Source: Paraspadella gotoi
Taxonomy: Eukaryota; Animalia; Chaetognatha
DNA: 64,000 bases
Assembly: GCA_051294375.1 (NCBI GenBank)
Contig: CM119270.1
Span: forward strand, 8,915,213-8,979,212
Direction of reading: 5' to 3'
The translations under genes and the position numbers were made by a program. The notes under the pieces were generated by a model, which was given only the letters and a program-made list of their open reading frames with translations, was not told where the DNA came from and ran no database searches. Every line of letters starts with the position of its first letter. Within the stretch, counting starts at the first letter, position 1. Positions 301-29,793 of this stretch are shown here, piece by piece.

Positions 301-3090
<2,790 letters not shown>

Positions 3091-3965: not shown

Positions 3966-4617
3966 GGAAGAGACAGTAATATTTGTTATGAGTTAGTGAT
4001 AGAACCGTTCAATATAAGCAGTCCTGAGCTTCGGATCAGGCTGTAACACCATGTTACAGGCGGGTTAAGCGCCCCGTCCCTCTTAACTGCCAGACGACAC
4101 CGGGCTAGAACCCCGGACCTTTGGGTTGGGAGGCGAATGACTTGCCTCCGGCACCAATGGCCGCTGATGAACGGTTGGTGGATTTTAGTCCACCATACAT
4201 CCCCCCTCCCGTAGGAGAAGTCTGTTGCGTCCTCTTCAGTGAATTGTTGTTGGTGGAAGAGTTCGTCACCAAGTTGAGGCATGTCGCCTGATGCGTTGTG
4301 GGCGGAAAGTGCATCGCAGGTTGAGGCATGTTGCCTGAAAGTGTTGTTGTTTGCTGTTGTGTTCGGAAGTCGGGCTCACCAATGAAGAGACAGTAATTAT
4401 TGTTATGAGTTAGTGATAGAACCGTTCAATATAAGCAGTCCCTGAGCTTCGGATCAGGCTGTAAACACCATGTTACAGGCGGGTTAAGCGCCCCGTCCCT
4501 CTTAACTGCCAGACGACCACCGGCTAGAACCCGGACCTTTGGGTTGGGAGGCGAATGACTTGCCTCCGGCACCAATGGCGCGCTGATGAACGGTGTGGTG
4601 GATTTTAGTCCACCATA
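3966..4617 (-). mobile_element. TRIM (miniature non-autonomous LTR retrotransposon), complete copy
   Basis: Two near-identical ~232-bp direct repeats (3966-4197, 4383-4617) flank a 185-bp non-coding interior. On the minus strand a PBS TGGTGAGCCCGAC (4381-4369) follows the 5' LTR and a polypurine tract GGGAGGGGGG (4210-4201) precedes the 3' LTR. 4-bp TSD ATAC at 3962-3965 and 4618-4621. Confidence 0.92.
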
Positions 4618-5233
4618 ATACTTTGTTTTTGATTTGTTTATAGTTAAAATTTTTATTCCTCTATCGCTTATTTGACATAGTTTTCGACACCAATGACTTC
4701 TAATGCAATAGCTATACCTTTCAAAAACTAATTACCTTGGCTAAGAAGAAAATAAAAATCTTTTTTAAAAGCCGTGCACACGTCTTAAAAAGTATGCGAT
4801 AAAAAAACAATTTCACAAAAAGGGTTTGGACAGAGACATGCGAGACATATGTGAAACGAAAGCTTGTGTTGTCTCGTAATAAAAGAATAAAAAAGAAAGT
4901 GAAAGCCGCGTATAAAAAAAAAATTGTATATTAAAAAGAATTACAAAAAATTATCTATGGCGATATATTTTTGTTATCCTCGGTGCCTTTTCCTTGAAAA
5001 CTTTCGTGACTTTGAAGCCGCTGAGTTCTGGATGCCGTCTTTGATTTTCCTTCTGCACGAGTCCTGAAGGAGGAAATTCGGAAAAGAGAAGTCTGTGGTT
5101 GTTGTTAAAATTGTTAAAGAATAAATTCTTTCTTACTCTGAACTTGTTGCGTCCACAAGTCACTACTAAACGATTTGATGAAACTTTTGGAAAGGGAATT
5201 ATCGAGGCCATTTGCTTTCTCTCTCTCTCTCTC

Positions 5234-5243
5234 NNNNNNNNNN
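5234..5243. other. Assembly gap (10 N) inside a (CT)n tract
   Basis: Run of n characters flanked by CT repeats. Confidence 0.99.
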
Positions 5244-6228
5244 TCTCTCTCTCTATCTTTCTTTCTCTTTTTCTCTCATTATATTCTACCTTTTTCTCTC
5301 TGTGCCATATACAGTAATAGTGGAAAGGATTCTATCACATAAATAGAAAGTTACCATGTCGCAACACTTTCTTACTGGTTCATTTTTTCTTGTTACAATT
5401 AAGCAGTAGTAAAAAATAAAAAAAAGTCTTGCAGGCTTGCGATGATAAATTAATTAACATTTGCAGGAAAGTTTGAAATTACTAAAGTTCAAAGAAAAAA
5501 AGTTATTTTTTTTGGGGGGGGGGTGGCGATAAAAACTTTTTGTGATAGCTTTTAGAATTAATCAAATTATCGCTTAAATACTATCTAGGAAAAAAGAATA
5601 TGACATAATTCATTTATTCAATAAAAAGTATATAAAATATGTGTAAAACATTATGATAATATTCTCAATATTTGGTATACCTTTTCTCAGCATCAATTAC
5701 TGCCTGCCTTTGTCTGGGTATGTTTTTATACAACAAATTGAGGTATGACAGTGAAATGTTTTTCGACATCTTTAACGCAATTTTGTGCAGCCCCAATATT
5801 AATGTTTCCCTCTTTTCTGAGAGCTATAATAATACTTTTTTGAACCAGAAAAAGGTGCAAAGCCTTTATTATTGCCAAATTAAAAAAATATTTAAAAAAA
5901 TAACTAACTCTATTTAAAATAAAAACAAATAATTAAATACCAAAAATGGTAGAAAAATAAATCTTTTTTTTTGCTATTTTTTATTTGAAGTAATAATATT
6001 TTTTTGCCTGTAACTTCTAAACGATTTGACCTCTAAAAAAATAGAAGGAAGCTACTGAAAGGAAATTCAATATAGATTCGGAAACATTCTGATTTTTTTT
6101 AAATTAAATAAGTTTTCGAGTAGATATCTTTTATTAAAAATGTAATATACTTTTTTCCTAGATAGTACGACACCTATTTTTCGATAGATATATAGATAGC
6201 AATAGAATGAAAGAATTTACGAACCTTT

Positions 6229-9200: not shown

Positions 9201-9723
9201 AATTTCATAACAGATTTGAAAATTTCCAAAAAAATTTATAAAATAATTTTTAATTATAAATTGGTAAGGATTGAGACATGAAACTAACTAAAATCTATTT
9301 AAGATGGCATTTGATTTAAGTCGAATTTCATTTTCAAAATTAGTCTCGGCTAAGTTTTTTTTCAAATTTATTTGTTCAGATTCATTTAGGCATATATATT
9401 TAGATATTTATATATTTAGATATATTTAGATTTAATTTTTTATTCAAATAAAAAAATGAAATTTGGAACAAATTCTTAATAAAGTAAGATTAAAACTTAA
9501 AACCTTTAAAAAACTAAATTTAAATTTAAAAGATGCACCTGTCGTTCAACTCTTGAAGGGCCAACTTTTCCTTTTCCCTGGAAACGACGACCTGGCTCGG
9601 GCTGACGGCCAACTCCTTCGCCACGATTGACGACGATCCCCCGAGAGACATCATCGCCATCTTCAGGGAATTGCTTCCCTGATGGAGGCGGGAAGGGAGG
9701 AAGAAAAAGAATCAGAGGGATTG

Positions 9724-9755
<32 letters not shown>

Positions 9756-10233
9756 AAGAAAAAAAAGAAAAAAAAAGAAAGAAAACAAAAGAAAGCAAAA
9801 TAAAAATCCTAATAAGAAAAAAATAAGAAATAAAAAAACAAAAAAAGAAAGAAAACATTTTTTTAAAAACAATTTTAAAAGTTTTTTAAATTAACTCAAA
9901 ACGAACAATATTTAAATATGAAGCGTTTTTTTAAAGATTGACATAAGGATCTCGATTGAACTTACTCTGGATCCCGACGCAGCGCCGCCTCCGGATCCGG
10001 CTGCAAGGTTCACCGATCTCACTTTGATCGCAGACGAGACTCCAATACCTGACATTCCGCCAAAGGCCATGGCGCTGCCTCCACCGCCGCTGCCATACAT
10101 GGCTTGGGATAGATAGGGTTGGGAGAGAAAGAAGGAGACAGACAGAAAAAGAGAAAGAAAGAAATAATAGAGAAAAAAAGAAATGGGAAAAGAGAGAGAA
10201 AAAAAGAAGAGGGAAAAGAAAGAAAGAAAAAGA

Positions 10234-10301
<68 letters not shown>

Positions 10302-10446
10302 TACGATTTAGTCCAATTGACACGCCTCATATAGTATATATTTTAAATCACACTCGGTTCGCCACACTCCAATGACACTTACCGGCCGAAGAACCACCCC
10401 CGATGGAGGTTGAGGACGATGAGGAGTAATGAACGTGAGATGCCAT
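6229..10446 (-). CDS. Cytoplasmic intermediate filament protein (long coil 1B, Gly/Ser/Met-rich head and tail); several frameshifts as assembled
   Basis: Minus-strand exons 10446-10383, 10102-9966, 9678-9539, 9111-8919, 8835-8675, 8384-8268, 7965-7753, 7169-6830, 6645-6361 and 6272-6229. Coil 1A motif EKEKLALQELNDRFASYIERVDFLEADNKRL; coil 2 start ALRDIRGEYE; rod end KLALDVEITTY(K/R)RLLSGEETR; C-terminus SSMSMTKTVTRNF*. AATAAA on the minus strand at ~6135-6130. Confidence 0.9.
7392..7623 (+). mobile_element. Solo LTR of the same TRIM family, in an IF-gene intron
   Basis: Reverse complement of the 3966-4197 and 4383-4617 repeats (TATGGTGG...CTCTTCA). Flanked by 4-bp TSD CCAA at 7388-7391 and 7624-7627. 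Confidence 0.92.
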
Positions 10447-10507
10447 TTCTTCTCGGATCGCGTGGAGTTTCGAAGTCGTCGTCGTCGTCTTTACAGAGGA
10501 GAGAGGA

Positions 10508-10544
10508 GAGTGAAGCGGCCCGTCAAAGGCTCAACCCTTTTATA
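10508..10544 (-). promoter_or_regulatory. TATA box and Inr-like element of the IF gene
   Basis: Minus-strand TATAAAAG starting at 10544, with TCACTC ~31-33 nt downstream and the start codon at 10446. Confidence 0.6.
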
Positions 10545-13500
10545 GGCTCTTGTCTCGGCGTCTTGGGCCTCGTCGCGTCGGGGGACCCGATAATGGAAAG
10601 AAGAGTGGCTGCGACCTCGAAAGGTTTGAGGTTTTCTTTGTTCGCTCTCGTTATTTTTTCTTCTCTTCCTTTCACGGCTCGCGATTGGTCGGTACCGTCG
10701 CGTGGCGTAGTAAAACTGGTTCGTCATTGGTTGGCGTCAATTCGGCGTTTCCGAAAAAAAAAAAATTACGTGGGATTCCTAGAATTAAAAAAAATAATTT
10801 AAATTTAATTTAAAAAACAAATTTCAAGATGCCCCGAAAATTGAGATTTCATCGTTTCGTAATTTTCTCCCCTTAAAATATTTATTTTTTCATTGACCAA
10901 TTGACCGGAACCCAAATTATCTAATCAGGTTAATTTTTTGTGAGTACACGTAGCGAAACGAGGATACAATTTTTTTTTTCAATTTAAATCTGATTTGATA
11001 ATTTTTATTTCATTTCGTTAGTAAGTGGATTTAAGAAAACATATTTTGATTTTCACAACGAATTTAAATCATATTTTATGGCAACGTGGAGATATGTGTG
11101 AAGCATCTCCAAACATCTTGCGCTCAGGGATTTGGACATGCAGAGTACCACCCCAAATAACTATCGTGTTTTTGCCGAGACTATCACTCTTAACCAGCGT
11201 GACCGTAAGCGGATTGAACCCGGAACTGTCCAAGCAAATGGGACGAGCTGAATTTCACAAAGCTATACGGGAAGCGAATTTCGGATTCGCCACAACCTAT
11301 AATTTAAGTAGTTAACTGGTTAATTTTAAATCGGTTACCAAGTTAGGCGGAGGACCAAATTTACCGGTTAACCGATGAAAAATATGAAACGGAACATCGT
11401 TGAAAAGCGATATGCAAATGAAAATGAATGACCCTTTATTTAAAAGGTGACCGCGGTACATAATGCCTGGAGCTGCTTACCTTGTTCTTGAATTCTTTTT
11501 TCCCATCTGGGTTACCTGTTGTTCGCGTTTACGGTAAAGGGCTAATTTTTTTAATTATGAGTCGTTAAGGAAAATTGAGGTGTGCTTTCTTCTTCTGGTT
11601 CTTTTTTTTTTTTTTAAATTTTATGGCTCTCTACCTTTTTTCGCTCGTGTGAGTGTCTTGTGTGGCGATGGGGGTCAACCGGTGGGCGAAAAGTTCACCT
11701 TTCTTACTAAAGCAAGAAATGAGATAGATTACTTCGGATTTTCGCTGGTTATATCATCGATTGATTAATCTATATTAAATGAGGTCTCAAATATTAAAAT
11801 ATTATATTTTAAAATTTATTTGAATTCATGATCATAAAGATTTTAAAGTATGCCTTATCTATGTAATAAAACAACGTTATGGCGAATTTAATGGACTAAA
11901 ATCGTCCTCTCCAGTGTTTGGATCTTTCTGATTGAAATAAAACCTTTTTTACATTCATATATCGCATAGTCCTATTACTTGGTAATTTTTTATTTAACTA
12001 CATAATTTCCCTTTTTTTCCTGAAATGGTAAACAAATGATTCTTTGAGAGTATAAAGGAATTCAGAAAATCCGAAGGAATGTAGCGTGCTAAAACAATTT
12101 GGATTATTTTTTCGACAAGTCTTTTGTTATTACTAATTTATATCAGTTTAGGCAGAGGGAACTAAAAAAATTATCTTATTAGGCTTCCTATTTTTTCTTT
12201 GTCTTGTCTCCCTTTTCCTTTCTTTCACTTTCCTTTTCTCTCTCTCTATAAATTAAATAAATGTAAAATAATTTTTTCACAGATTTAGTTTTGAATGATT
12301 TTTTAAATACTTGGTACGGAAGGCCGATGCGAGGCTCACGGGCAAAAGAAAGCCCGCAAGACTTGACCTGTAAAAAGACCTGGCCAGGCGAGGAGAACCG
12401 AAAAAGATTGACCCGACCCGATCATCGCCATTTTTTTTCTTTTATTATTTCAGGTTTGTAAAACTTTTTAAAACTTTCTCGCTTTATTTTTTACTTTAAG
12501 TGTAGACAGGATATGAAGTTCACCGACATAATTGTAATTTGTTTTTTTCGTCACCATTACCTGGTTATAAAAAAATTTAAAACGAAAATAGCTGAAACAA
12601 AGGGAGGAGGAGGGGAATTCAGAGTAGCCTCATCTTCGAAAAGAAAATTCAGATAATGTATGTTTTTACTAGTTTGTACGTACTTTTTATTCTAGTTTAC
12701 GTTTAATAATTTTAGTTTCGGGTCATGTTGGTTGTTTATTACAAAAGCGAATTTAAGATCGAACTTTCGTTTTCCGTCTTTGTTGTCGTCGTCGTCGTCG
12801 TCGTCAGAATCGATGATAAATCCCTGCTAACACTTCTCCGTCCATACTTAAGACATAATTCCAAGATCTTCGTATCCATTTTCCACTTCTGAGTAGTGGC
12901 AGAGGCGCCGTACCGTATATTTGCTATACATCCCCTCTTTTGTATGCAAATACGTTGTCTCTCTATTATTTTTTTTTTCTTGTCGTGCTTATTAAATAGT
13001 TTGGACCGTTTATTTCTGTTTGTGTCCTTTGTGTTTCTATAATTTGCTTTGCTTTGCTAACGAATTACATTATTTTTAAAAATATTGTAAAACATTTTTA
13101 TCGTAAGTTTTCACGTTTCCATTGAAGGTTAATCATTTACTCTCAATTAGTTGCTCCTTTCTTTAATTTAAATAGTTTCTGTTTGGCTAGATCTCGCTCC
13201 GGACTGGTGTGCTAACACTAACAAATGACCAACTGCCTATTGGTTGTGATAATTCTGAAAAACCCGTTTATTTTTCGTTTTAAAATACTTTTATTTTTAC
13301 GTTTCAACTTAAAAAAATAGAATAAGTTTTAATTTTTAATTTTCTTTTTTAAAAATAATATATTGACATTAATTACATCAATATATTTTCATTTTACTTA
13401 ATTATGCACGGTTTAATTACCAAAATTCATAAGCGATTATCTAACCCCCTCTCATGATATTTTCTCGATCGGCGAAGTTTCCTCCCGACTGTAATCATAT

Positions 13501-14074
13501 CGGGTTTTTTTTTCCTTTTTTTTAATTTATGATTTTTATAAACATTAGACTCTAATTTAGAGAGGAGAAAAGTAATAAAGAGGAATTCCGATGTCTTTTG
13601 TTATAAACTTAAGTGGGATAAATTGCGGATTCGGAGATTGAAGAGGCCTCAGACGAGGATTTTTTTTCCCGCAGTATTACAGTATTACAAGTTAAAGATC
13701 TTTTGTTTTTAATTTCGTTGCTTCACATTTTCTTGCTACTTTAGGGTTAAGAAATATAGCGGATAGAGAATAAGGGCCAAGGGGTTAGTAAGTAAGTGAT
13801 GGTAATTATTTTTTATGTGTACAAACTTTTAAATCTATCTAAACAATTACAAAGTAATTACAATGATAAGCTGTTTACGGACAGACCAAACTACAAAATG
13901 ACTTTCAAATCTCCTTATTTATGCTACTGAAATATGTCATTATGGAGTCAATCTCGAGTTCATAAATTATTTATAAATAATTTGTTGTTTGTTGTTTGTC
14001 CTTGACAAAAAAATTATAGAAATTTCTTATTCAACCGAATTTATGAGAGAATCATGTTTTTTTTTTTTTTTCAG

Positions 14075-15400
14075 ATGTCATCCGTCCGCCAGCCATGTTT
14101 GAGTTCAAAAGTGATGGAAGAATCAAATGGTTTTTCCGTTGATGCCTGCAACGTTTTGAACGAATCTGAAGATTTAACTCAAGAATCCGATTTTTCTGCT
14201 GAATTTAATTTTTGGACTGAAAAAAAAGATGTAAAAGATGATTGCATCACAATGAGTTTTAACCTCGGAGATTTCTTGGCTCAGGGATATTCCAATTCCA
14301 AAAATGTAGTAAATCTCAGCGAAAATTATGAAGTTGCAAGTAACTTTCTGGATGATTTGGGAAACTCTTCTTCTGAACAGAACGTTTCTGTAAATGACGA
14401 TAAGCTAGACACTAACTTAGAACAAAGTCATTTTAGAAGTAGCCAATTAGAAAATTTGAACGGTTCAAAACAAGAAGAAATGACAATTTACAAGACAAAG
14501 AATTCGGAAAGATTCTTAAACGATAATTATGTAGCGACTTCCAAGCAGATTAATTTTGAAATACACGCCGAAGTTTCGGAAATTTTCAAGCGAGATGATT
14601 TTGTGATTTGCAAGCAAAATGATTTTGACACATGCGAACAAGATGACTTGAAAACTCAAAAACTAGATGATGAAGAAACTTTAATACGAGATAAGTCGGA
14701 AGCTTACCAGAAAGTTGATGGATTTTACCTACCGGATGATGAAGAAGATAACCAAAAAGCTTTTTCAGAACTCTATGAAAGTCATCCCATTGAATTTCCC
14801 AAAACCAAAGATTTTGACTCCCGCCAAAATTTTGGAACAAGGATCTACACAAGCTTATTGGCAAAACCTGGATCAAAAGAAGGTTTACCAGAGGATGAAA
14901 ATTCAAATATAACTGATAAACAGCTTCGGAATCCAGAATTCAATAAATATACTAAAGACGAATACAACTGTACGGAGTTGGATTTTCAAACGAATACCAA
15001 AACTCAAGTTGATAATCATCAAGCGACCCACATTACAAAGAGTATGTGCGAGATTTGTAACTTTATAGGGAATATCAAAGATTTGAGAAAACATTATTTA
15101 GCCGATGAAAAGAGTTCAATTCGGAAATGTTGCAAATGTGATTACACAGCAAAACAACGGGTAAATGTGATTAAACACGCGATGAAAAAACACGGTGTTG
15201 TGATCAAAGAAAGAACTTTGAAATGTAAAGTTTGTTCCTTCAAAACGGACGCGTTAATTAAACTGAAACATCACGTTAAAACTCATATTAAACAAAGCTC
15301 CTACTTGTGTGACCATTGTGGGTTTAAAGTAATAGGATATGATTGTTTTATGACGCACAAAATGATTCACAGTAAAGAAAGCAATGAAGGAACAAGTTAA
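14075..15400 (+). CDS. C2H2 zinc-finger protein (acidic low-complexity N-terminus, 3-4 C-terminal fingers), single coding exon
   Basis: Poly-T/CAG acceptor directly before ATG 14075. Fingers CCKCDYTAKQRVNVIKHAMKKH, CKVCSFKTDALIKLKHHVKTH and CDHCGFKVIGYDCFMTHKMIH, plus a degenerate CEIC...H finger. Confidence 0.88.
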   Translation: MSSVRQPCLSSKVMEESNGFSVDACNVLNESEDLTQESDFSAEFNFWTEKKDVKDDCITMSFNLGDFLAQGYSNSKNVVNLSENYEVASNFLDDLGNSSSEQNVSVNDDKLDTNLEQSHFRSSQLENLNGSKQEEMTIYKTKNSERFLNDNYVATSKQINFEIHAEVSEIFKRDDFVICKQNDFDTCEQDDLKTQKLDDEETLIRDKSEAYQKVDGFYLPDDEEDNQKAFSELYESHPIEFPKTKDFDSRQNFGTRIYTSLLAKPGSKEGLPEDENSNITDKQLRNPEFNKYTKDEYNCTELDFQTNTKTQVDNHQATHITKSMCEICNFIGNIKDLRKHYLADEKSSIRKCCKCDYTAKQRVNVIKHAMKKHGVVIKERTLKCKVCSFKTDALIKLKHHVKTHIKQSSYLCDHCGFKVIGYDCFMTHKMIHSKESNEGTS

Positions 15401-16511
15401 TTACAAGATTTTGCTCCACAATCAAATAAGTAAAACTAAATGAGGTATAAAGAGACCGACAAATTTGCTAACAGTGTTTATAGCTTCCAAAATCTTTGTT
15501 AATTTAAGTTTCATATCCAGTAACTACTATGTACTTAACTTTAATATAATATACACTGTAAAAAATTGTTCCGAGTTACCTTTACCAACATTTTTTATTT
15601 TTATGTCGTATTTGTTGACTAGCTATTGTTAACTGTAAGAAATTTACTAATTTACGTCTGCTGGTAATAAAAACGATTCTTGTATCTCTTTTAATTTTTT
15701 AGCATATTCAAGAAAAATAAAAAGTAACTAGAATATAACTTTGCTGTTTATACTACAATAAAATGTTTCAATAACATGGCGTAAAGGAGTACACGATAAT
15801 CAATATTAGTTATTATCATTATTATTTCCAGTTAGTCATTCTCAAATTGTAAACATAGGAAAATTTCTGAAACTTGATCGAGAATGACGAATCATTACGA
15901 AACGAGACGGGAACTTCAGATAACTAGATAAAGTGGCTGGAGGAAGATAACTACTGCCCGCAGAGTAGGATTCCCTCTTTACCCGAGTGACGCGATGCTT
16001 TTTCTACTCTTTTTACGTATTGTTTACCATTTTTTTTCGCTTCGTTGCGCCCGCAGTCTGCAATAAAATATTGTTGATGCTGCCACACCATTGAGGTTAT
16101 ATAGAATGCCTTCAAGCCATCGTCATTATACTCCAATTTTTGAAAACTGGAAAATTTAATTGAAGTTTCTTCCTTTTTTTTGGTAATTTGAAGATAAAAA
16201 CTAAATAGCTTAAAAATATTATTCAACTTATAAGCTTTGATGCAAAAGTGATATACCGATTCTCAGGTTGGCAGAACCTTTTTGAATTTCGTCAATGCAG
16301 ATATCATGGCGTCGATGATCTCCATAGAAATGAATAGTAAGCGGGAAAAAACTCAAAATTGGTTTAAACAATGACAAAATTGGGTAATTTAACTACCGAT
16401 ATAAATTTTATCATAAAAGACATAATGACAGTTTCGGGTTGCAATTTTTGTTAAGGTGTTTATTAAAGATCGTCAAAATAAAAAAAAATTAAGATTTAGG
16501 ATTTTAGTTAG

Positions 16512-16910
16512 ATGCATGGAAGCTATTTTATATTATCTAAATACTATATAATGTTAAATTTTTTTTTAATAAATTTTAATTTTTTTTAACGGATTCTGAT
16601 AGAACTTTAAAAGTTAGATGAAGGTTATTATTACAACTTTTTAAAATTTTAATGATCTATAAAAATTAACAAAAACTATAAAATTTAATGAATGATGATG
16701 ATGATGATTTTTTAAGTTTTTTTTAATTTTAGCCTCTTTATCATTATTTTTTTAAAAATTTGTAGTACTAACCTTTATCTAACTTTTTATCATAATCCAT
16801 TTTTAAAAATTTAAATTTTCTAAAAAAATTTTTAAGCATTTCTTATATATTGTTAAATATTAAAATCTTCCATGCATGAGGAAAATTAATTTAATAAAAA
16901 TCTAACATCA
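16512..16910 (+). mobile_element. Repeat family B copy with short inverted termini (MITE-like)
   Basis: ATGCATGGAAG (16512-16522) and CTTCCATGCAT (16867-16877) are perfect inverted repeats. A reverse copy lies at ~60445-60860. Confidence 0.65.
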
Positions 16911-17113
16911 TAAATCAATTATGTTGTCAAAGGACAGACAGACTTTTTCATATTGTAAAAAATGTTAAATTCTGGCCCGCCTTAGTACGTATACGTTTGA
17001 GGAAACTTGCCAGAAGGCAATCAAACAGTTTATTGAAAAAAAAAGTTTTTAAATCTGTTGTTAATGTAGGTTGCTGTACAGGTGTTAATAACCAAGAAGA
17101 AACCAAAATTGGG

Positions 17114-20100
17114 ATGAACGAAGACGGGGACGAAAAGCGGGAGATTCACAAAACGGGTATGTAATTAATGTTACGTATATATTTTAATTAATTAAATGTC
17201 CTAACTTTTTTACTTTGTTTTTCTTTTATTAGACACCAAAAAGAATGAAGGATTTATCGGTCAGCGAATTATTGCAATTACTTTTATATGCTGTTTATTT
17301 ATCGTGGTTCTTTATATAGTTCAGCAGTAAGTATTAGAATATGTAACGGTTTTAGTCATGGATCTTCTAACAAAAACATTTTATTTACAAAAAAATTCAT
17401 CTCAAACAGAATGTCATCTACCTCCACGTCAATAATCGCTAACTCGGCAATTTCCGGCGCTCTCACAGGGGGGCTGCCCTCATTAAATTTAGGTAACCTT
17501 TTTTTGTTTGTAAATTCACAACTTAAGTTTCTGTTCTGATAATATTTTCTTTCTTATTTCATTATGGATTGATTTATATTCTGTGAAGTGTCTTGGACCT
17601 CCTTAACAAAATTAGTTATTTCTTGAAATCAGGCATTCGTCAAGATTACGAGCTTCAAGACTGTCGTCCAGAATCGAGTTTGAAACACTCTTTCCCGGAT
17701 TTGGATTATTTTTTCAAAGGCTATAACATTTTTGAGGGTTATCCTTTGACAGACAATGTCGACCCAGGATTCACGCATCAAATATTTAAAGTACGCTTCC
17801 ATGTTAGAACTAGAAAAAAATAGAAGCCTAGAGATTTCGATAATTTTGGCATCTTACTAACATCTAGGAAATTAGAAAGAATTTAATGTTTAAGCTACGT
17901 ACCAAAAAGAATTAATTACTGAGGAAGAATTTATTTTATTATAAAATTAAATAAAATTTAAACACTTAGGTTTCCTTCATTCCGGGCCGACAAACGGCCG
18001 ACTGTCGGTACAGCGTCCCGGAGGGGATCGAATTGATGCCAGCTTTGGCCTGTCGGACGGACTTGGCCTCATCCGTCATCAAGACCCAATCTGAGCTCCA
18101 GTCCTCCATGGGAACTTTTCTCCAGGCTGGGGGAGGCTACGCTGGGTTCAGCTGCAGTGCGAACGCGAACTACAAGCAGGCATGGCGATTTGCATTTGTA
18201 ATTTTAATTGTAACTTTAACTAAAATAGCGAAAAGCCTACAAGTGAAAGTCGCGTACGAAAAAATTACATTTCCGTTTATTGTGTTCATTGATACGTAAC
18301 CATCAGTAAATTTTTATTTTTCTTCCTTTGTTGCGAGACAATTTTATGATTTAAATCATGTTTCTAAAACTTGTTCAAGGTGTTAAAATTGACAGTCACT
18401 GAAATAATTTTTTCATGACATCAGGAATCGGCAATGATGTCAAGCGGTGAGATTGTTATCATCCGCCAAATCGCGAAATGTAATCACTATCAGGCGAAGT
18501 TGGACGAGATTATCGGCCCGGATTTTTCTGATTCCTTTAAGGTAAGATAAATAATTATACATTGTACCTACGTAGTGAAGCTTCGAAAAATGATCCATTT
18601 TGGTTAAAGTCATTTTCCTTTTTTTCATTTTTTTCATTATATTCATTTATTACTCGAAACATAGCAGTTCATATTTTAGCCATATGTATTGTATTGTATA
18701 TATATTTTATATATCATGTTTGGTTTTGACAGAGCTATCATTCTCCATAGTACCTCATTAAATTATATGACGTGGCTTTTAAATTGAGTATTTACTGCTC
18801 TAATGAAATTAGCGGTAGTCTGTTCGACTGACAAAAATAGAGAATGGTTCGTCTCTCAGCTTAATAAGACAGTGTAGTGGCTTAAGCATACATTATACAT
18901 TTATGGATTTCTTCTTTCAATGTTTTTCTGCCTTTTTACCGCATTAAATCTATTAGCACTTGAGTTATATAGTTTTTCGTATTTTTGAATATCATTTTCG
19001 TCTTTTTGTGACCGACGGAGTTAAAAATATCATCCAATCTGCGCAGCCGAGAGTTAAAATTCGTGAAAGCCGCCTCGAGGATTTCCTGCAATAATTAACT
19101 AAATTATCTTTTTAACGTTTGAGTGGAATGTCTTTTTCCTTTTAATCTAAGCTGATGTCTTAATTTTTCCAACAAAGTTAAACGTAACGTTTTGTACTAA
19201 AAAAAAACAAAATACGAAAATTATTGTCACCCTGTTCCGAGGATTTCTTTATGATATTTTATAGTATATTTATAGGATTTAATAAAAAAAATATTTTAAA
19301 AATGCGTAAATCTCTAATACCGTCTTACTCCGACATTACTTTTCTTTTGTAATCGAATATTTCGGCTTTGTGCTTCTTTTTCGGCTCAATTTGGTAAATA
19401 AGACCGTCTTCTAATCGAAAAGGAGAAAGCAAACAAAGGTAAGAAATTTGGAAAAGCAATGTTACTGGAGAAACTGACAAAACAAAGATTCTGTTTAAAG
19501 TCCGTATAATTTTGGCAAATAGTTTAAATATTTTTTATAAATTTTTTTACGCTATTCGACTATTTTAGAAAGATATGTTTAAGTTATAACTACTTTCATC
19601 GATTAAAATTGGAATATAACCCGTGAAACTTCAAGAATTTTTTTGACGTCTGGTAAACATAATGATTTATTTCTATTAAAAAAACACAATGATTTATTTC
19701 TATGAATTAACACACAATACAGCTCAAACATAAGGATTGAAGTAAATATTATTCGGTTGTTCAGAAAAGAAAAATTCTTCTTCAGAAATCGTTCAAAATT
19801 AATATATAATTTTTTATATTGGTTGTTCGAACCCGTAACATTTTGATGTGAAAATCATGCATGAGTAATGGTCTAATTCTACACTCCATTTCTGCTAAGC
19901 ATTAGTGATTTAAAATGATCTTTTGTAACCGAGAATACTTATTTTCCTAAACACAACCGTTAAAAACAACCGAATTATATATTACATATGGATGCCCCTA
20001 CCGTACAGCCGAGTCTTATTTCTTCTCGTATTTTGTTACAGTTTGTAAATTTTAGCGTAAAAGATGGCGTCAACTACAACTCGTCTAAACTCCATCAAAG

Positions 20101-23100
20101 ACGCGATCGGCGGATGCTTGAAAAAATCCAGAGACATCTGCTGTTGCTTCCGTAAAGAAGCTGACCCAGACAAAAGATCTCGTAAGCTGAGTAACGGCGA
20201 ACTAAAAAAAACAAAATTGCAGTTGATCAGACTCGGCGGTACAGTTTGCGGGATCGAATTTTGCTACGCCGCGGAAACTGGTAAGTGGATGCGAATAATA
20301 TGTAATGTAGTATTTTATTATTTTTTTCTAGTTTTATGCTGAGATTCGAGCTCTTCTCAATAATAATTAGACAGGATCAAGATTTATTAAAAAAATTTAT
20401 AAGTCAAGTTTTGAAAATTTAAGGGCACAAAAGGTATTACGTACATTCACGATGAAAGGCAATTTCAAGAGTTTGGAAGTTAAAGGCTTTTATTGAAAAT
20501 CCCAATAGTGAATTTATATTTAAAAATTAATCTCTAAATTAAAAATCGAGAAGAGTACATTTACATCAGGAAGCCTGAAATATTAATTTCAAAGGGAAGC
20601 GTATGACTATATTTAAATTAGGCTGAATAAAACTAATTCCCATTTCCCATCCTAGCCTTCGTCAGCCCCATCCTTCTCAATCTCGGCGTCCCCGTCTACC
20701 TCATGACTCTCGTTTGGTGTCTCTCCCCGATCCTGGGCTTCTTCCTCGGGCCTCTCCTCGGATCCCTCAGCGACAACTGCCGCCTTCGATTCGGTCGTCG
20801 ACGCCCCTTCATCTTCCTCTACTCTTTGGGCATCTTAACCGGTCTCCTCCTCGTGCCGCGAGGGGCGTGGCTCGGGTTTTTGTTGGGCGACGCAGATTCG
20901 TCGATCCAGTCCGCTTCCGAGGCCCTTCAAGCTTCCCAACTTCTCTCCAACACTTCGTCCACTTACTCTCCTGATCGGATTCCGATCTCGGCGCGCCCCT
21001 GGGGCACGGCTCTCACCATAATAGGAGTGATGCTGCTGGACTTTTGCTGCGACTGCTGTCAATCCCCCACCCGCTCCTACCTACTCGACGTGACCGCGTC
21101 GGAGGAGCATCAAGAGGGCCTCTCGACGTTCACCATAATGGCCGGCCTCGGCGGCGCCATCGGCTATGTCATGGGCGGAGTGGATTGGGAATCGGCAGGC
21201 ATCGTCTCCCTCGGCGGCATCGACGAGCCACTTGGCGGCAACGTCTTCCTCTTCGTCTTTTTCGTTTACTTAATCTGCCTGACGGCGACGGTGACGGCGT
21301 TCAAAGAGATTCCCTTGGAGAAGATCGTCGACGGAGAGAAGAGTCCGCTCTTGAAAGACACCTTGGATGACGAGACGAAGAGAGAAACTCCGGAAATTGA
21401 CGCCGGTTTGAGCCAAACGGAGATGATGACGATGGATTCTGGAATTAAGAATGCCGGCTACGGAACCGTAGAGGTCATGGATGGAGAAGCGGCGCCGGAA
21501 ACAGAAGCGACGCCGGTTGACTCTGAACCGGCTTCCGGCGCCACGGAAGAAGCTCGAGGCGACGCCTCTTCCTCTTCTTCTCCCTCTCCTTCTCCCCCTG
21601 AATCTCCAATCCCAGAATTCACCCTCAAGACTTACATCCTCAGCATCTTTAACTTGCCTCGATCCCTTTTCCTCCTATGCCTGACCAACCTATTCTGTTG
21701 GATGTCGCTCGTCAGCTACAGCCTTTACTTTACCGACTTTGTCGGTCAGTCAGTCTTCGGTGGCGATCCCAACGCCCCACCGCTCTCCGACACCCGCGAG
21801 GCCTACGAGTCGGGCGTGCGGACGGGCTCCTTCGCGATGGCGCTCTACTCGATCTCTTGCTCCATCTATTCGTCGAGACTGGAGAGTTTGATCGAGAGGT
21901 TCGGAGCTCAACGACTCTACGTCGGCGGCCAGTTGGTCTACGCGACAGGGGCGTTGTTGATGGCGCTACTTCCATACAAGCCCACCATCTTTCTTCTGTC
22001 CCCGACTGCGGGGATAATGTACGGCACCCTGTTCACCATGCCCTACATCATCTTGGCCAATTACCACTCGCTTCAGGTCTTTGATGAAGGGGGCTCCTCC
22101 AAGCCGCCGCGGAAACGCGGACTCGGCACCGACGTGGCCTTGTTGTCTTCAATGGTGTTCGTAGCGCAGTTTATTCTATCGGGATTCATGGGTGCGGCCG
22201 TTCACGTGACCGGAAGCACGAGGACGGTAATGGGCGTAGCGTCGGTTTGTGCCACCGCGGGTTCGATCGCCGCTTCGAAGGTTTTGTACCTCGACTTGTA
22301 AAGTTTTACGAGGTTCGTCGGCGAACAAAACGTCAACGGGACCAAGATTAAAAATAAAGCGGAAGTGGAGTTCAAATGATTAAGATATTTTAAATATAAA
22401 ACAAACATAAAAACATAAAAATTGAAAATCCTTAATAATGCGGATAGCTAAGTGAAGATACAGATTTAACTTTAATCTTTCGTCCAAAAGATTCAACTTA
22501 TTTCCAATTTGAATTCAATTTGTCTAATTTTTTCACGGATTTTTCATCAAAGATTCAGGATTGTTCAATATTTAAAAAATCTTAAAAGCATAAGGATCGA
22601 GCCACCTTTCGATGGTAACCAAATATTGATGCGATGATAACCAAATATTGATGCGATGATAACCAAATATTGACGCGATGATACCAATAATTGATGCGAT
22701 GATAACAAAATGACTGATTGTGATGATAATCAAATGATTGATGCGATGATAGTCATTCATTGATATGATGATAATCATTCATTGATACGATGATAGTCAT
22801 TCATGGATGCGTTCATTCATTCATCGTAAATAAAACAAACAAATGCGTGTATGAGTGAAAGTCAAAAAACGAACGATCGTACAGAGAGAGAGAGACAGAA
22901 AGACAGAGAGAGAGAGAAAGAGGACAGAAAGAGAAAAAGAGAGACAGAAAGAGACAGAAAGAAGAGAAGCTGGAAGCCAGCTGAACAGTCACTGCAGAAC
23001 CTGAACTCGTTTTTTAAGGGTTCAGAAAAAGCAGCAACTGACAAAATAGGAAAAAAAATATATATATTAATTTAAAAAAATAAAAGAAAGGCAAAAATAT

Positions 23101-26100
23101 GTTACAATTGTTTACAATTGGAAATTTTTCCAATTTTTTCCAATTGCAGCTTGTAAAAGATTTTATTTTTATTTGTATTAAAATTAAGATATAGCTTCTA
23201 TTAAAAAGTTATTTTGAGTTCCCATTTTTATTATAGATTTAAAAAAAAATTTTTTGAATTTCATCTTCAATATTATATAATGCAATATGTAAATTAGATT
23301 AAAGCATTTCTATATACTAATTTGGATATTATAATGAGTACTATAATTTATTTGCATATTGCAGTAAATCATAATGAAGTGGAAATTCAAACAAAAAAAT
23401 ACTTAAATCCAAATGTAATACAAAAATATCAAAGCTATTTCAAGATGAGAAGCCATATCTAAATTTTTAACTTACTATGATTGCACACTTTGTAAAACTT
23501 TATCATAATTCATAATATTTTTATTTAAAAAAAAACGGTAAGTCCCAACCAAACCTATAAAAGCGTGGTAGTTTTTATATAAAAATAGCGTGACGACGAC
23601 GACGACGACGCCGACGACGACGACGACGTCACAAAGAAGCAAATCTAAAACATTATAGAGCCTGAACCGGCTCGCGGTCAATGGCTGCGATAAAAAAAAG
23701 AAGTAAATTATCATGTTGCAATGATGATTGAATAATTGATTGAATGATTGAATAATTTGAAACATTATTTAATATAATTTGTCATTTGACGGTATGATCT
23801 CGGGAATCCATTATTACTGAGGTCATTTTCTCTCTATCTCTCTCTCTCTTTTTTTCTCTCTCTTTCTCTCTCTCCCTTTTTCTCTCTTTCTCTCTCTCTG
23901 ACCTCTTCCATCGGTTTCTGTGATAATTTTCTATATATTAGAACTTTCTGTATTTCAGTATTGTCATTTTATTAATCATTAGCATGTTTTTTAAAAATAG
24001 TTATAGACGTATTTAAAAGGGAAACAGATATTTTAAACAGGTTCAATAAAGAAAATATAATGAATCTTCTATAGTATATTTGATTTTTAAATTTCTCAGT
24101 CGTCAGTCAAACTATTATTGGAGCTAGTTTCCAACGTTTACGAACTCCAGTTATGACTTATGTGAACCAAAAGTCGTGTTCAGGCCTACAAGTGTGTTCC
24201 TCTTACTTTATTATCCTGTATTTTTTGTATTTTATTATTTATTTCTTTTACCTATAGTAAGTAATAAATATAATAATATGTTGTGGCGGTATATTCACCC
24301 CGCCTCACGTCCACCATCATTCAGCCAATACCATTGGCTCAGAGGGTGAACACACCTTCCCAAGCGTTGTGTTCCATCCACTGTCCTAACGACTTCCTTC
24401 TGCAAAGGCCAATGGCCACAGAGGCTCAAATTATAAGCACCACCCTGCAAAATTCCCTAACTCCTCATTCGCCCCGCCAATCTAGTATACACTATACTAT
24501 ATAGAGTAACCGCGCCAGTGACTGGATGCGTCACTGAGGGTCGGAAGCCCCCAAAGCCAACAGTGAGATGCCCCATTCCAAAGGGCATCACAGGCAGCCC
24601 GGCTGTTGCCATAATTTACTAATATTTTTTAGTTTTTAAAGTCTTAAAATAAATTTTGAATGGTAATAATAATTTAAAAATATTTTTTTATGCTTCAGGT
24701 CTCCGTTAAGGAATTCGCCGAAAATCTCCACGATGCCAAGGAACACGCTCGAAAGTTCGTGGACTATTGGGGCACCCACTACTTCAAGAACATGATCTTC
24801 GGTGCCTCCTTCGTAAAAACGGAGGAGAGAACCGTGACCGTGCAGCAACAGAGAGAAGCCCGAGAAGCCAGCGCGAGCGTCCAGGCCAGCGGATGGGGCT
24901 TTTCCGCTGGTGCCGGGGGCAGCTCGAGCTCTTCCGAGAGTCAAATGTCTTCTCAAGCCTCAGGCAAAGTCTCCGTCGTCTCCATCGGCGCCCCTCCACC
25001 GGCCGACAACGACGGTGCGACATGGGCGGCGAGCGCCCAACGCTTCCCCGTCCCCATCAAGTACGAGGTGGAAGTCCTCAGCGAGCTTTTTCGCGAAGAC
25101 GGCTTGGGGTCATCTCTCCGCGTCTCCGCCAAGGACATGAGGATCATGAGAAAAACGGTGGCCGCCGAATTGGAGAGTCGCAAAGTGGGCGGGAACTCTC
25201 TCGCTGTCGACGGATTCTCCGTTCCCAACTTTGAGATCGAGCACAGGGCGATTAGAGTGATAACCACCGATCTCGACATGTGTCGTCAGATTTGCGGCTC
25301 CACTCCCGAGTGCTTCATGATCAGTCATTTGAACAGAACCGAGAGCAATTGCTACTTATTCGGCAATCAGGTTCAGAATCAGCGGAAACGAGAGGGTTGG
25401 AATCAAACCACAATCGTTCTAACATCCAAGATGCGATATTATAAAGCGGACGTCCTGCTCTCGAACATAGTGATCAAAGGCAGCGATATCGGTGACGATC
25501 GAGGATCGAATCGAAACTCTCAATACCTTTGTCTGGTCGAATGCAGAAAGTCCTTCGAATGCGTCGCCTACACTTACTTCCTAAACGAAACCTGTCGGCT
25601 CTTCAGATCCTCGGCGAACGAGAGGGTGGAGCTGAAAGGGTTCGCGATGATCAAGGACGGGCAGGAATCGGACAGGGCGGAGTCCCGCATTTTGCACAGA
25701 ACCGACGACGTGAATCTCGAAGTTTTTGGATTCTTGCTTCAGATGAGAGAGTCACCATCGTTGCCAAAGTTAGATTACGACGAGAAAATTCACGGATCCG
25801 TCCTCGAATTTCAAAAGAAGTGCAGTCAAATCTGCATGGAGGAAAGGAATTGCGTGGCCCTGAGCAAGAGCAGGAATAATTGCACCTTTCACAGCGAGGA
25901 TGATTCGGTTCACGAAATGACTGGAAAGGAAAATAACTTTTTCACTGCCGAGATTCTCTTAGACAAACTGAAGATGATGAAGGAGGTGATTTCCCTGCAG
26001 AAATTTATGGTCTCCGGGTCACCGTTTCAGAATGTCAAGGCCTATTCTCCTTACGGTTGTCAAAATCATTGCAGAGCCTCGCAAAAATGCGATTTGTCAA

Positions 26101-26204
26101 TGTACGCTCGCTCGAATGGTACGTGTTCCTTGTTCTACAGGGGAAAGGTGGTCGGTCTTAAAGCAAATGACGAAACGAACACGTACATGATTGGAAGCAA
26201 TTAG
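17114..26204 (+). CDS. MACPF (perforin-like) domain protein with N-terminal signal-anchor and four PAN/Apple-like modules, ~736 aa
   Basis: Exons 17114-17156, 17233-17326, 17410-17492, 17633-17790, 17970-18179, 18425-18541 and 24699-26204 join in frame (2211 nt). Hydrophobic segment RIIAITFICCLFIVVLYIV; MACPF start FPDLDYFFKGYNIFEGYP...DPGF...IF; signature FVDYWGTHYFKNMIFGA; P.PIKYE..LSEL end; four Cx3C-x5-C...C modules. A possible further upstream exon lies at 16267-16336. Confidence 0.88.
20064..22301 (+). CDS. SLC45-family (MATP/proton-associated sugar transporter, MFS) protein, ~620 aa, nested in the MACPF intron
   Basis: Exons 20064-20280 and 20656-22301 (phase 1, 1863 nt). Family motifs GIEFCYAAETAFVSPILL, GSLSDNC..RFGRRRPFI, LLDFCCDCCQSPTRSYLLDV, YFTDFVGQSVFGGDP and RGLGTDVALLSSMVFVAQ. 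AATAAA at 22353. Confidence 0.95.
22610..22810. repeat. Degenerate ~22-23-bp minisatellite (gatgcgatgataaccaaatatt)
   Basis: About 8-9 diverging tandem units are visible. Confidence 0.8.
23080..23700 (-). mobile_element. Helentron/DINE-like non-autonomous element, copy 1
   Basis: ~600 bp inverted homologue of 34200-34830, with an internal (GAC)n microsatellite and a hairpin next to a terminal T-run. Confidence 0.65.
24282..24613 (+). mobile_element. Putative solo LTR of a second family
   Basis: GC-richer island TGTGGC...GCCATA with imperfect inverted ends and flanks ATGT/ATTT. Its first ~70 bp recur inverted at ~62497-62566. Confidence 0.6.
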
Positions 26205-26306
26205 GTCAATTAAAATGTTCAGATTTCCTTTCCGCCTGTAAAGAGCATAAATATAGAGCTTAAATACGGGTTTGTTTTATTTTAATTATTCGGTTTAATT
26301 TTGGTG

Positions 26307-26832
<526 letters not shown>

Positions 26833-29793
26833 CGATCTCTCTTTTACTCTGTCCGCAGCAGCAATTATCATCGCGTCCGCAGCGACCGCTCTCAGCCGCG
26901 GAGTTTCTGTCCCCCGCAGCAGCCTTAACCCCCAGACTCGCTCCGCCAGTACATCGGAAAATCAAAAATCAGTTACGTTTTTTCTTCTCGTAGCGGAAAA
27001 AAAAGAAGAAAAGTAGAAAAGGATGAATGAAAAGAAGATAAATTAATCTGGCTCGCGAAGGGGAAGAAACAAAAAAACGGAAAAAAAACTTTTTTTTTAT
27101 ATTCACATTAAAAAAAAGAATCGGGCAGATTGACGACGGCGTGGAAAGAAGCATGCTCAACATAAAAAAAAAACCTCAAATGAAACTAATTAAAAATACT
27201 AACGAAACAAAAAAGGAAAACGAGGTCGAAACCGCTCTAAAAACAATGACGAAATAAAAAACAAAACAAAATAACTAAAAAGAAAACAAAATTCTCGTAT
27301 ATTCGATACGATGATTAACGCCGCAAATATTCCCAGATATCGTATTGACTGAAACAAGAAAATATAAAAAGAAAAAGATAAAAAGATTACGAAAGAATGT
27401 AAAATTATATTTTCTTCTCCGTTTCTTTTTTTCTTCTCACTCCTGCTAAATTCTTTTTGAACCCGGATCGAAATTTGCCACAAAATCCGACTCACTTGTT
27501 CTCCGGTTTGCGGCAAATCAAGTCTCCTGCAACTATGACGGGGGAAGGGGCCTTCAAGCCGCACAGGTGGCGGGTGATAGGGTGCGGGGGAGGCAGTGTT
27601 GGGGAAAGAGAGAGAGAAAGATAGAGAGTGAGAGAGTAATTGGCGGCGTGCTCGGTCAATCACGGATGATTCACGACTCGGAATCTGCAAAATCTTTTTT
27701 TCCTTACTCTTACTAAAAACTGCTCACAATACTAGGTACCTAATTTAACAATTAGCGAGATATTTTTATAAAATGGCCAATGCTGTAAGATGATTATTTG
27801 AGGAAAACGAATGTACGAAAAAATTATCACTCTCAACCCTAGAAAGAACAACAACTACATTATCAACAATAACAGCTTTCGAGATCACCGCTACAGTCTT
27901 TCGCGAGATTAACTCTGCTTTCCGTATCTAAATTGATTTGCCTTCATCCGGTGTCTGCTTTCACCCTGTTTACTTTTTTCCTTAAACATCAGCATCCACC
28001 ATCGAGAAACGAGAACGCGATCCCTCGTGGCAGACAGAAGATTGCTGCTACTTAACCAATTCAAGGCCATTCTTTCTCAGACCGGTTGTGGTTCAACGTT
28101 CAATATCTAATTTTGGTTAACCAGAGAAAGAAAGAGTGAAATGAAACTTTTGATTATTGATTAGTGATTAATTGCGAGCGTTTAAATAAACAAATCTCCG
28201 AAAATTTACTTTCTTTACTTTTTGTTGTTTCCACTTCTCATCAACGGCTTCGCTGTGAGGAAGACTTAAATGAAAGAACTCGAGAATGTTAAGCGCATTA
28301 GTAGGCCAACCTATTTAGAGAGAAATAAAGAAAAAGACCGACAGAAAGAAATATCGAGAAAATAAAAAAAAGAAATATTGAGTCGAACCATATCGTTAAA
28401 AGGCAACTCTATTCGACTTGGCGTTTTTTAATCCGAGTCATGATATTTTGATTCGACTTAGAAATTCGATGTTTCTCGATGAGTAAACAAACGAATCATT
28501 GAAAGCAGACCGACCCCCACTCTCTCCCAAGTTTTTCTATTTTCGAAATTTTACTCAAGGCGACAAATTTTAAAAGGTTTGAATCGACTTTATACAGAGC
28601 ACGTCGACCCATGTTTTAATTCGCCTCCTTAATTTTCGATCCTCCGATGCTCTTTTATTTCAAACCATCCCGACATCGCTTTCCACTCTTCTCATCAAAA
28701 CAAAAGACTACCTTCTTTTTACAATTGATTCTAAAGTAAGAAAAAAAAATGGCGTCGGTTGCAAATTGCTTTTTGATTCGGCGCGCGAAAAACAAAAGTC
28801 GCTCGGTTGAAGGGCTTTTTATGGCGACGTTGCGAGTCAAGTTCGACGAGAGGTTTTGCTGCGTTATTTTTATTTCGAACGATTTAGTCGGAAGGTCATA
28901 ACTTTGAGACAAAGCATTACTGCGAGTTAACATGAAGTATTGTTGTCATTTTTTTAAAGAAATAAGAAATAGTAGGAAAGACCGAGAGAATGTTAACAAA
29001 TTAAATATTCTATCCTTTATCTTATTGAACATTTATTTGTTCTCAAAATTCTATCAATGTTCTTAATGTTTTAAATGGTTTTAATAATTTCAATTTTTGC
29101 ATCATCGTTTTGCAAAAACGGTATCGTTGTCACCGTTGCGAGCTTTTACGTGAGACGGAGAGAATTTCAACGAGGAAATCGGCGACAACAACGACGAGAC
29201 ACAGGACTTCAATGCCAACGTGGTGTCGGGATCAAATACGTGACGAACTTTTATCGACCCGTAGGGAGAAAGGGAGAAGAAAGAAAAGGGAGAAAAAGGA
29301 AGATAAAAAGAAAGAGGAAAATTAAAGAGAGAAAGAGAAAAAGAAAGAAAGAAAGAAAGAAAGAAAGATCAAATGAAAGACAGAAATAGGGAGTGAAATC
29401 TAGCTTTCATAATTCCTGCCTATCCAGTATCCACTTTGATCTACTCCAAAGTTTATCACAATCTGTAAAAAAAATAATTTTGTCTATTTGCTTTTTAAGC
29501 TCGCCAATGGTCATAGAATCGTACCAGGCCTAACTAATCATATCCTTAAACAAAAATAATTCTCTTTTCGCTCTTATTTTCGAACCATTTGCCTCTCTTC
29601 CCTTTCTTTACCTCATTTACCTCATTTCTTTTCTATTCCTGTTTTCGTCGTCATTGAGAATTTTTCTAATCGCCTGATATTCATCCCTGTCGAGACCGCC
29701 TGGTTTTTCAGGCGCACGTCTTCCATTTATCGTTATTCAGGCGGTCGAGACTGAGAATCTTTTGTGGAGGCGGAAGCGAACGCCAGCTGCCAT

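What the first reader, a model, noticed from the sequence alone, without database searches (positions are those of the whole stretch)
17114..26204. Complete SLC45 transporter gene nested on the SAME strand inside the intron that splits a MACPF domain
Seen: the MACPF frame stops at a phase-0 donor (18541, ...PDFSDSFK|gtaaga) and resumes 6157 nt later at a phase-0 acceptor (24699, VSVKEFAE...YWGTHY), just before the MACPF signature. Inside that intron is an intact two-exon SLC45 gene (20064-22301) on the same strand, with its own splice sites, a probable 5' UTR donor at 19439 and AATAAA at 22353. Known: most nested animal genes are antisense to the host. Inference: a full MACPF transcript must skip the transporter exons and read through its poly(A) site. 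The two products may therefore be mutually exclusive or co-regulated, for example a pore-former and a transporter of the same acidic secretory granule.
Basis: partly seen in the sequence, partly recalled or inferred. Interest (0 to 1): 0.8.

Follow-up and report, generated by a model that had tools for sequence, protein, structure and literature searches.

The report
Transporter gene nested inside perforin-like gene
In an invertebrate genome a spliced, transcribed SLC45 transporter gene sits on the same strand inside what is very likely one 6.2-kb intron of a perforin-like gene, and each gene likely makes its own clean mRNA from its own start; the layout is a known minority kind of nested gene, with no sign that the two products work together.

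Summary
Real but ordinary in kind. Seven in-phase exons (17114-26204) encode a predicted 736-aa MACPF+PAN protein; exon 6 ends at family-profile position 187 and exon 7 resumes at 189. One RNA data set holds two separate spliced contigs: an SLC45 mRNA of three exons (5' UTR exon confirmed), and a MACPF mRNA that leaves the genome at the 18541 donor with 1635 further letters. Spliced to 24699, these would end 25 nt inside the microsatellite behind exon 7. The junction itself was not seen, because reads were laid only up to 22860. No chimeric splice shows, and mis-splices would be out of frame. Correction: RNA runs on more than 200 nt past the AATAAA at 22353. Same-strand nesting makes up 22-29% of nested pairs in fly, human and mouse; multi-exon cases are about 8% in fly. 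The scan has noted such layouts before in other genomes. Nothing supports a shared granule function. Long shot: if this is an arrow worm (earlier AI note, not verified here), SL trans-splicing could release SLC45 from the MACPF transcript.

The parts
17114..17156 (+). MACPF gene, first coding exon as read from the ATG at 17114 (true start uncertain: the frame is open upstream and the RNA contig has about 250 more letters 5')
   Evidence: phase arithmetic, three-frame translation; record count of contig 17
17233..17326 (+). MACPF exon 2, with a hydrophobic stretch (predicted N-terminal membrane anchor or signal)
   Evidence: RNA bin depth fits this exon to within 6 depth x nt; hydropathy 2.85 over 19 aa
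17410..17492 (+). MACPF exon 3
   Evidence: bin depth fit; phases
17633..17790 (+). MACPF exon 4
   Evidence: RNA contig 17 piece; family profile 38-78
17970..18179 (+). MACPF exon 5, followed by a GC-AG intron
   Evidence: RNA contig 17 piece; profile 83-148; intron ends
18425..18541 (+). MACPF exon 6, ending at the donor of the host intron
   Evidence: RNA contig 17 piece ends at 18543; profile 150-187
18542..24698 (+). host intron 6, 6157 nt, GT-AG, phase 0 (junction inferred, not seen)
   Evidence: its acceptor ranks 2 of 308 AGs under a matrix not trained on it
18833..19043 (.). low-depth (3.1) unspliced contig in the RNA run, upstream of the SLC45 5' end: pre-mRNA, upstream start or outron
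   Evidence: record 18
19200..19438 (+). SLC45 5' UTR exon (5' end unresolved, may begin some 50 nt further up)
   Evidence: RNA contig 19; unexplained depth in bin 19089-19287
20042..20280 (+). SLC45 exon 2, ATG at 20064
   Evidence: RNA contig 19
20656..22597 (+). SLC45 last exon: CDS to 22301, 3' UTR to at least 22396 and likely 22597 or beyond
   Evidence: RNA contigs 19 and 20; homologs
24699..26335 (+). MACPF exon 7: rest of the MACPF domain and PAN domains, CDS to 26204; 3' end predicted from the RNA contig length
   Evidence: Pfam; profile from 189; length arithmetic

Best explanation
An SLC45 transporter gene with three spliced exons lies on the same strand inside what is very likely intron 6 of a MACPF+PAN gene, and the two likely work as independent transcription units, each with its own start and probably in different cells. 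Shown: the exons, their phases, two separate spliced RNA contigs, and the physical order from MACPF exon 1 through the SLC45 gene. Inferred: the MACPF pre-mRNA is cis-spliced from 18541 to 24699, so the SLC45 copy inside it is discarded with the intron. Transcripts from an internal promoter near 18.8-19.2 kb use the SLC45 splice sites and end behind 22.6 kb. Stray cross-splices hit stops within 2-37 codons and are likely degraded. The SLC45 gene likely arrived as an intron-poor copy, so the layout is a tolerated insertion and not a switch.
For: RNA contigs 17 (2596 nt, depth 34.5) and 19 (2219 nt, depth 28.4) are separate and unbranched across every shared splice site. The bins holding the 18541 donor and the SLC45 junctions at 20042, 20280 and 20656 are explained by listed contigs to within 14 depth x nt, as is the bin holding the 19439 donor. 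Contig 17 matches two letters past the donor (GT, also the first two letters of exon 7) and has 1635 letters left, which predicts an end at 26335, inside the CT repeat that starts at 26311. Exons scanned one by one are colinear on a 95-protein profile; in 61 of 62 relatives matched by both exons the extrapolated gap is -7 to +4 residues. No other MACPF piece lies in the window. Run X7 holds 0.55 of sampled words, against 0.50 expected with exon 7 and 0.33 without, repeats not counted. DNA run X1 has one contig over 16958-20765 and one over 20738-22579 with no differences. The SLC45 coding intron is absent from 5 of 5 genomic relatives that cover the site (two look like the same gene), and the gene lacks introns near residues 445 (5 of 10 loci examined) and 489 (7 of 10). 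Same-strand nested genes of flies are intron-poor and often RNA-derived (PMC3814207).
Against: The RNA support is one data set (X7 and X8 are identical) and consists of contigs, which drop rare isoforms and show neither ends nor cell types. X1 may be the assembly's own source, and the independent DNA run X5 has no cover over 19198-19711. The promoter is not located. L004 also has a very long exon, so intron loss need not mean retroposition. Unexplained RNA depth remains at 17895-18093 and 19089-19287.
Confidence: 0.68

Rival explanations
1. One promoter, two fates: the MACPF primary transcript is either cis-spliced to exon 7, or SL trans-spliced near 19152, which releases the SLC45 mRNA and discards exons 1-6 as an outron.
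For: Earlier AI notes call this genome an arrow worm (not verified here). Chaetognaths trans-splice about half of their genes and keep 18% in operons (PMC12460157 passages). Unexplained RNA depth in bin 19089-19287 would fit about 83 nt starting near 19147, beside an AG at 19150-19151 with 13 of 15 pyrimidines upstream; the only intronic RNA contig (18833-19043) lies just upstream of it.
Against: No leader letters were seen: contig 19 begins at record letter 1 in an A run. DNA run X1 also has extra depth in that bin, so a repeat can explain it. The AG ranks only 80 of 308 under a small matrix. The phylum test was inconclusive. Even with a leader, SLC45 could have its own promoter and outron.
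Confidence: 0.12
2. The two genes are a selected, co-regulated functional pair (a pore-former and a transporter of one acidic granule).
For: Both mRNAs are present in one RNA data set. The MACPF donor and the SLC45 UTR donor are the same 9-mer.
Against: A bulk sample says nothing on cell type. None of 24 SLC45-bearing loci holds a MACPF match (most are short and all are distant relatives). Fly nested pairs are less correlated in expression than neighbours, and the same-strand pair OMP/CAPN5 seems negatively correlated in olfactory neurons (PMC6549253 passages).
Confidence: 0.1
3. The nesting is only apparent: the SLC45 block or exon 7 is misjoined in the assembly, or the mRNA joins exon 6 to a last exon from another locus (paralogue or trans-splicing).
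Against: X1 covers exons 1-6 and the SLC45 start in one contig at even depth. The length left in contig 17 fits this exon 7 and its repeat. The profile positions join without overlap.
Confidence: 0.08

Closest known systems
Same-strand nested genes of Drosophila (PMC3814207, PMC5174743; passages)
   Same: A whole protein-coding gene inside one intron of another, same strand, with an intron-poor guest. 28.7% of fly nested genes are same-strand.
   Different: 72.5% of same-strand fly guests are single-exon; this one has two introns (a class of about 8% of fly nested genes, my product of the two figures), and the intron interrupts a single protein domain.
Mammalian host/nested pairs, e.g. OMP in CAPN5 (PMC6549253), and Herc3/Nap1l5-type loci (PMC11694760, PMC8467205; passages)
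   Same: Same-orientation nesting occurs (76 of 296 human and 55 of 248 mouse simple pairs); the host reads through the guest; guest activity can shift host polyadenylation.
   Different: OMP is single-exon. No truncated host isoform was detected here (contigs only), and no imprinting or tissue data exist.
MACPF+PAN proteins of cnidarians and molluscs (P0125 Clytia hemisphaerica, P0126 Sanderia malayensis; Atlas cluster)
   Same: MACPF then PAN domains (21 of 30 relatives scanned have PAN); the GTH motif ends in GA as in 111 of 150 relatives; many have an N-terminal hydrophobic stretch (25 of 32 likely full-length ones).
   Different: Only 22-42% identical over the best stretch. No function is known to me, and searches for MACPF with PAN or apple found no paper on the family.
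SLC45 family (SLC45A4, PDB 9giu; invertebrate 'proton-associated sugar transporter A' / lovit)
   Same: 42-56% identity to 120 listed relatives over much or all of the last exon; MFS profile hits.
   Different: Only one coding intron, at a position not seen in the relatives examined; substrate untested.
C. elegans 'alternative operon' (recalled from memory; not found)
   Same: Would match the rival reading: one promoter, with either cis-splicing over a nested gene or trans-splicing to release it.
   Different: No leader shown here; the recalled case is a lead only.

Membership tests
Same-strand nested gene pair | Guest gene lies wholly between two exons of the host in genomic DNA | tested here: met
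   Window sequence; X1 contigs 16958-20765 and 20738-22579. The stretch beyond 22860 rests on the assembly alone.
Same-strand nested gene pair | Host exons on both sides are joined in one mRNA | tested here: inconclusive
   Strongly implied by contig 17 length, shared GT and profile continuity; junction letters not seen.
Same-strand nested gene pair | Guest makes its own mRNA that shares no exon with the host | tested here: met
   Contig 19 is separate and unbranched; no extra depth in the bins of its junctions except the bin of its 5' end.
Same-strand nested gene pair | Guest has its own promoter | not testable with these tools
   Contigs cannot show a start; no raw reads were offered.
MACPF superfamily | Pfam MACPF above the gathering score | tested here: met
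   58.4 bits against a cut-off of 21.5 for exon 7 alone; PLP1 5oup hit at E 6.5e-8.
MACPF superfamily | Signature (Y/W)G(T/S)H(F/Y)x6GG (recalled) | tested here: inconclusive
   Matches except that it ends in GA; GA is the rule in this subfamily (111 GA, 21 GS, 4 GG, 1 VG, 13 no match, of 150).
MACPF superfamily | Pore formation | not testable with these tools
   Some MACPF proteins do not lyse cells (PMC11090067 passage); the single-sequence model was unusable (pLDDT 34).
SLC45 transporters | Best sequence relatives are SLC45 members over the full length | tested here: met
SLC45 transporters | Twelve transmembrane helices (recalled) | tested here: inconclusive
   A crude hydropathy scan called 7 peaks above 1.5; no structure was predicted.
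SL-resolved (alternative) operon | Spliced leader on the guest mRNA, no guest promoter | tested here: inconclusive
   No loose letters at the start of contig 19; 272 loose-end rows were not shown.

The most novel reading that the evidence does not exclude
In an animal with spliced-leader trans-splicing, one MACPF primary transcript is a two-way switch: cis-splicing over 6.2 kb gives the perforin-like protein, while leader addition near 19152 releases the nested transporter mRNA. This would be an intron-nested operon outside nematodes.
Probability: 0.12. Interest if true: 0.65.

Novelty: new member of a known kind. Interest (0 to 1): 0.3.

Why it matters
It is a compact (9 kb), RNA-supported case of the least favoured class of nesting: same strand, multi-exon guest, and identical competing donors 900 nt apart. 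It could serve to ask how a host transcript ignores a guest's splice sites and poly(A) site. It will also trip gene predictors. It adds a member to an undescribed MACPF+PAN subfamily. It does not reveal a new principle unless the trans-splicing reading holds.

Tried and rejected
No whole genome is held, so paralogues and synteny could not be searched. No listed run is on record as RNA; X7 and X8 were taken as RNA because their contigs skip GT-AG introns exactly, and were counted once because their lengths and depths are identical. A word-based search with exon 7 found no relative among 7996 scored candidates. Metagenome scans found no locus for exon 7 (0 of 99 pattern matches) and only distant SLC45 loci (24 of 112), so synteny is untested. 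An IMPDH exon gave unnamed top hits at 93-95% and did not settle the phylum. Rfam found nothing in 15400-28000. The single-sequence fold of exon 7 failed, so no fold search was run. Rejected: splicing of exon 6 into the SLC45 exons or to the AG|GT at 22077, since contig 17 has no listed piece there and the bin depths leave no room; and the AATAAA at 22353 as the main end. Paper searches with no useful hit: MACPF with PAN domain (0), MACPF+apextrin+apple (0), MACPF+PAN+invertebrate+domain architecture (13, none on this family by title), chaetognath+MACPF (2), nested operon (5; PMC3409270 passages not relevant), alternative operon terms (0). PMC12460157 has no 'nested' or 'MACPF' in its main text; its supplements were not read and may list such loci.

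Full report
Observation. The region was read directly. The window is eukaryotic, with GC-rich exons in AT-rich DNA. Seven MACPF coding exons (17114-17156, 17233-17326, 17410-17492, 17633-17790, 17970-18179, 18425-18541, 24699-26204) have matching phases and sum to 2211 nt, or 736 aa. Intron 6 is 18542-24698, 6157 nt, GT-AG, phase 0, and intron 5 is GC-AG. Exon 7 alone scores MACPF at E 1.5e-15 from profile position 58 and carries PAN domains. The SLC45 CDS (20064-20280, 20656-22301; 620 aa) has 958 relatives at E<=1e-20 among 7987 scored, the best 49% identical, and SLC45A4 as best solved relative.

Do the two MACPF halves belong together? A search of 50% representatives with the first 166 aa of exon 7 gave 242 relatives, 150 of them listed. 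From the 95 of these that are 380-750 aa long I built a profile and scanned each exon on its own. Exon 4 matched positions 38-78, exon 5 83-148, exon 6 150-187 up to its last residue, and exon 7 from 189 at its residue 6. In 61 of 62 relatives hit by both exons 6 and 7, the extrapolated gap was -7 to +4 residues (one was +24). Exons 1-3 matched none at E<0.01. The profile finds no other significant MACPF piece in the window. All 30 relatives scanned have MACPF and 21 have PAN; the 2 named among 10 looked up are cnidarian, and the nearest Atlas cluster is MACPF+PAN, commonest in molluscs (score 0.92).

RNA and DNA evidence. Eleven runs were listed, 9 of which hold the stretch, and none is on record as RNA. 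Four runs were laid on 16900-22860. X7 and X8 give identical spliced contigs and count as one RNA data set. Contig 17 (2596 nt) runs through exons 4, 5 and 6, leaves the genome after 18543, and has 1635 letters that have no listed piece on the stretch. The two extra matched letters (GT) are also the start of exon 7. Spliced to 24699, the contig would end at 26335, 25 nt inside the CT repeat that begins at 26311, where such contigs tend to break. Between 18601 and 30000 only two pyrimidine-rich AG|GT sites exist, 22077 (inside SLC45, excluded) and 24699. Contig 19 (2219 nt) is 19200-19436, 20040-20279 and 20655-22396, which is the SLC45 mRNA with the predicted 5' UTR exon. Depth arithmetic confirms MACPF exons 2 and 3 and leaves residuals within 14 depth x nt in the bins of the 18541 donor and the SLC45 junctions, so no chimeric contig was laid. 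Against a tidy picture, extra depth is unexplained at 17099-17297, 17895-18093, 19089-19287 and 22273-22471 (the first and the last two bins are swamped by repeats). The 22273-22471 excess, with contig 20 (22455-22597, depth 33.7), indicates that the 3' UTR goes past the AATAAA at 22353. DNA run X1 spans 16958-20765 and 20738-22579 without differences but may be the assembly's source. X5, another sample and study, bridges exon 6 to 19197 but has no cover over 19198-19711. Nothing beyond 22860 was laid, so the junction letters and the right flank of the SLC45 block stay unverified.

How it likely works. The MACPF donor and the SLC45 UTR donor are the same 9-mer and rank joint first of 284 GT sites under a matrix built from the 7 donors of these genes. 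The exon 7 acceptor, which was not in the training set, ranks 2 of 308. A host pre-mRNA therefore passes two guest acceptors, two guest donors and the guest 3' end. Cross-splices would be out of frame: exon 6 to 20042 stops after 37 codons, exon 6 to 20656 after 16, and SLC45 exon 2 to 24699 after 2. They are thus likely to be degraded or harmless (inference). The simplest reading is two promoters used in different cells, with some loss of host transcripts tolerated. Such interference (intron retention, exonisation, cryptic polyadenylation) is known for nested genes (PMC3192792 abstract; PMC11694760 passages). The guest looks intron-poor. Its one coding intron is absent from 5 of 5 genomic relatives that cover the site, and among the 10 of 24 loci with several pieces that I examined, introns near residue 445 (5 loci) and 489 (7 loci) are missing here. 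That fits an inserted processed or reduced copy but does not prove it, since L004 also has a long exon. A second SLC45 copy or a divergent allele is hinted by an X5 contig with six differences at 20693-20735, all synonymous.

Rivals. Earlier AI notes on this genome call it an arrow worm. My own test was inconclusive, and the SLC45 hits only say invertebrate animal. If the notes are right, spliced-leader trans-splicing is common (10,197 of 21,072 genes in one species, PMC12460157 passages; PMC2481426 passages and section 12), and the SLC45 mRNA might be released from the MACPF transcript. For this reading: the unexplained depth at the SLC45 5' end would fit a start near 19147, beside an AG at 19150-19151, and the only intronic RNA contig lies just upstream. 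Against it: no leader letters were seen, X1 has extra depth in the same bin, and that AG ranks 80 of 308. A nematode precedent is recalled only (not found; PMC7986045 passages did not mention it). The granule idea has no support from any call; 0 of 24 SLC45 loci carry a MACPF match, a weak test.

Comparison and novelty. [quoted passage not shown] Human has 76 same-strand against 220 opposite, and mouse 55 against 193 (PMC8467205 Table 1). A newer survey finds only a slight bias (PMC11694760 passages). This locus therefore belongs to a minority but well-described class. The scan itself noted same-strand nesting in Euglena, a fungus, a shark and a priapulid-like animal, and heavy antisense nesting elsewhere in this genome; these are unchecked notes. 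Verdict: a new member of a known kind, interest 0.3. The trans-splicing switch is given probability 0.12 and would deserve 0.65.

Noticed in passing
window 18180-18424: MACPF intron 5 has a GC donor with a weak consensus, yet it is spliced exactly in RNA contig 17.
   Followed up: partly
window 20693-20765: Run X5 shows six synonymous third-position differences within 43 nt, and the DNA contigs of X1 and X5 break at 20738-20765: a second SLC45 copy or a divergent allele.
   Followed up: partly
window 17895-18093: Extra depth in the RNA run that is absent from DNA run X1 and not explained by listed contigs; possibly another isoform or a related transcript.
   Followed up: no
window 22581-22817: A 22-nt tandem repeat of very high depth in all four runs sits in or just behind the SLC45 3' UTR.
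   Followed up: no
window, 3' part of intron 6 (hairpin arms 23250-23294 and 23350-23394): A 45-nt inverted repeat, and complementary purine- and pyrimidine-rich microsatellites about 900 nt apart, lie downstream of SLC45; they do not flank the guest gene.
   Followed up: no
window about 6300-10400, minus strand: An intermediate-filament-like gene (label from my reading of the translations) has frame breaks, e.g. an in-frame stop at about 9021-9023: assembly error or pseudogene.
   Followed up: no
window 17235-17324: The MACPF protein has a hydrophobic stretch about 25 residues from the presumed start; 25 of 32 likely full-length relatives have one in their first 90 residues, several at positions 40-70, suggesting a membrane-anchored subfamily.
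   Followed up: partly
window 141-2650 and 14076-15400: Neighbours: IMPDH exons and a zinc-finger-like ORF about 1.7 kb upstream of the MACPF gene on the same strand.
   Followed up: no
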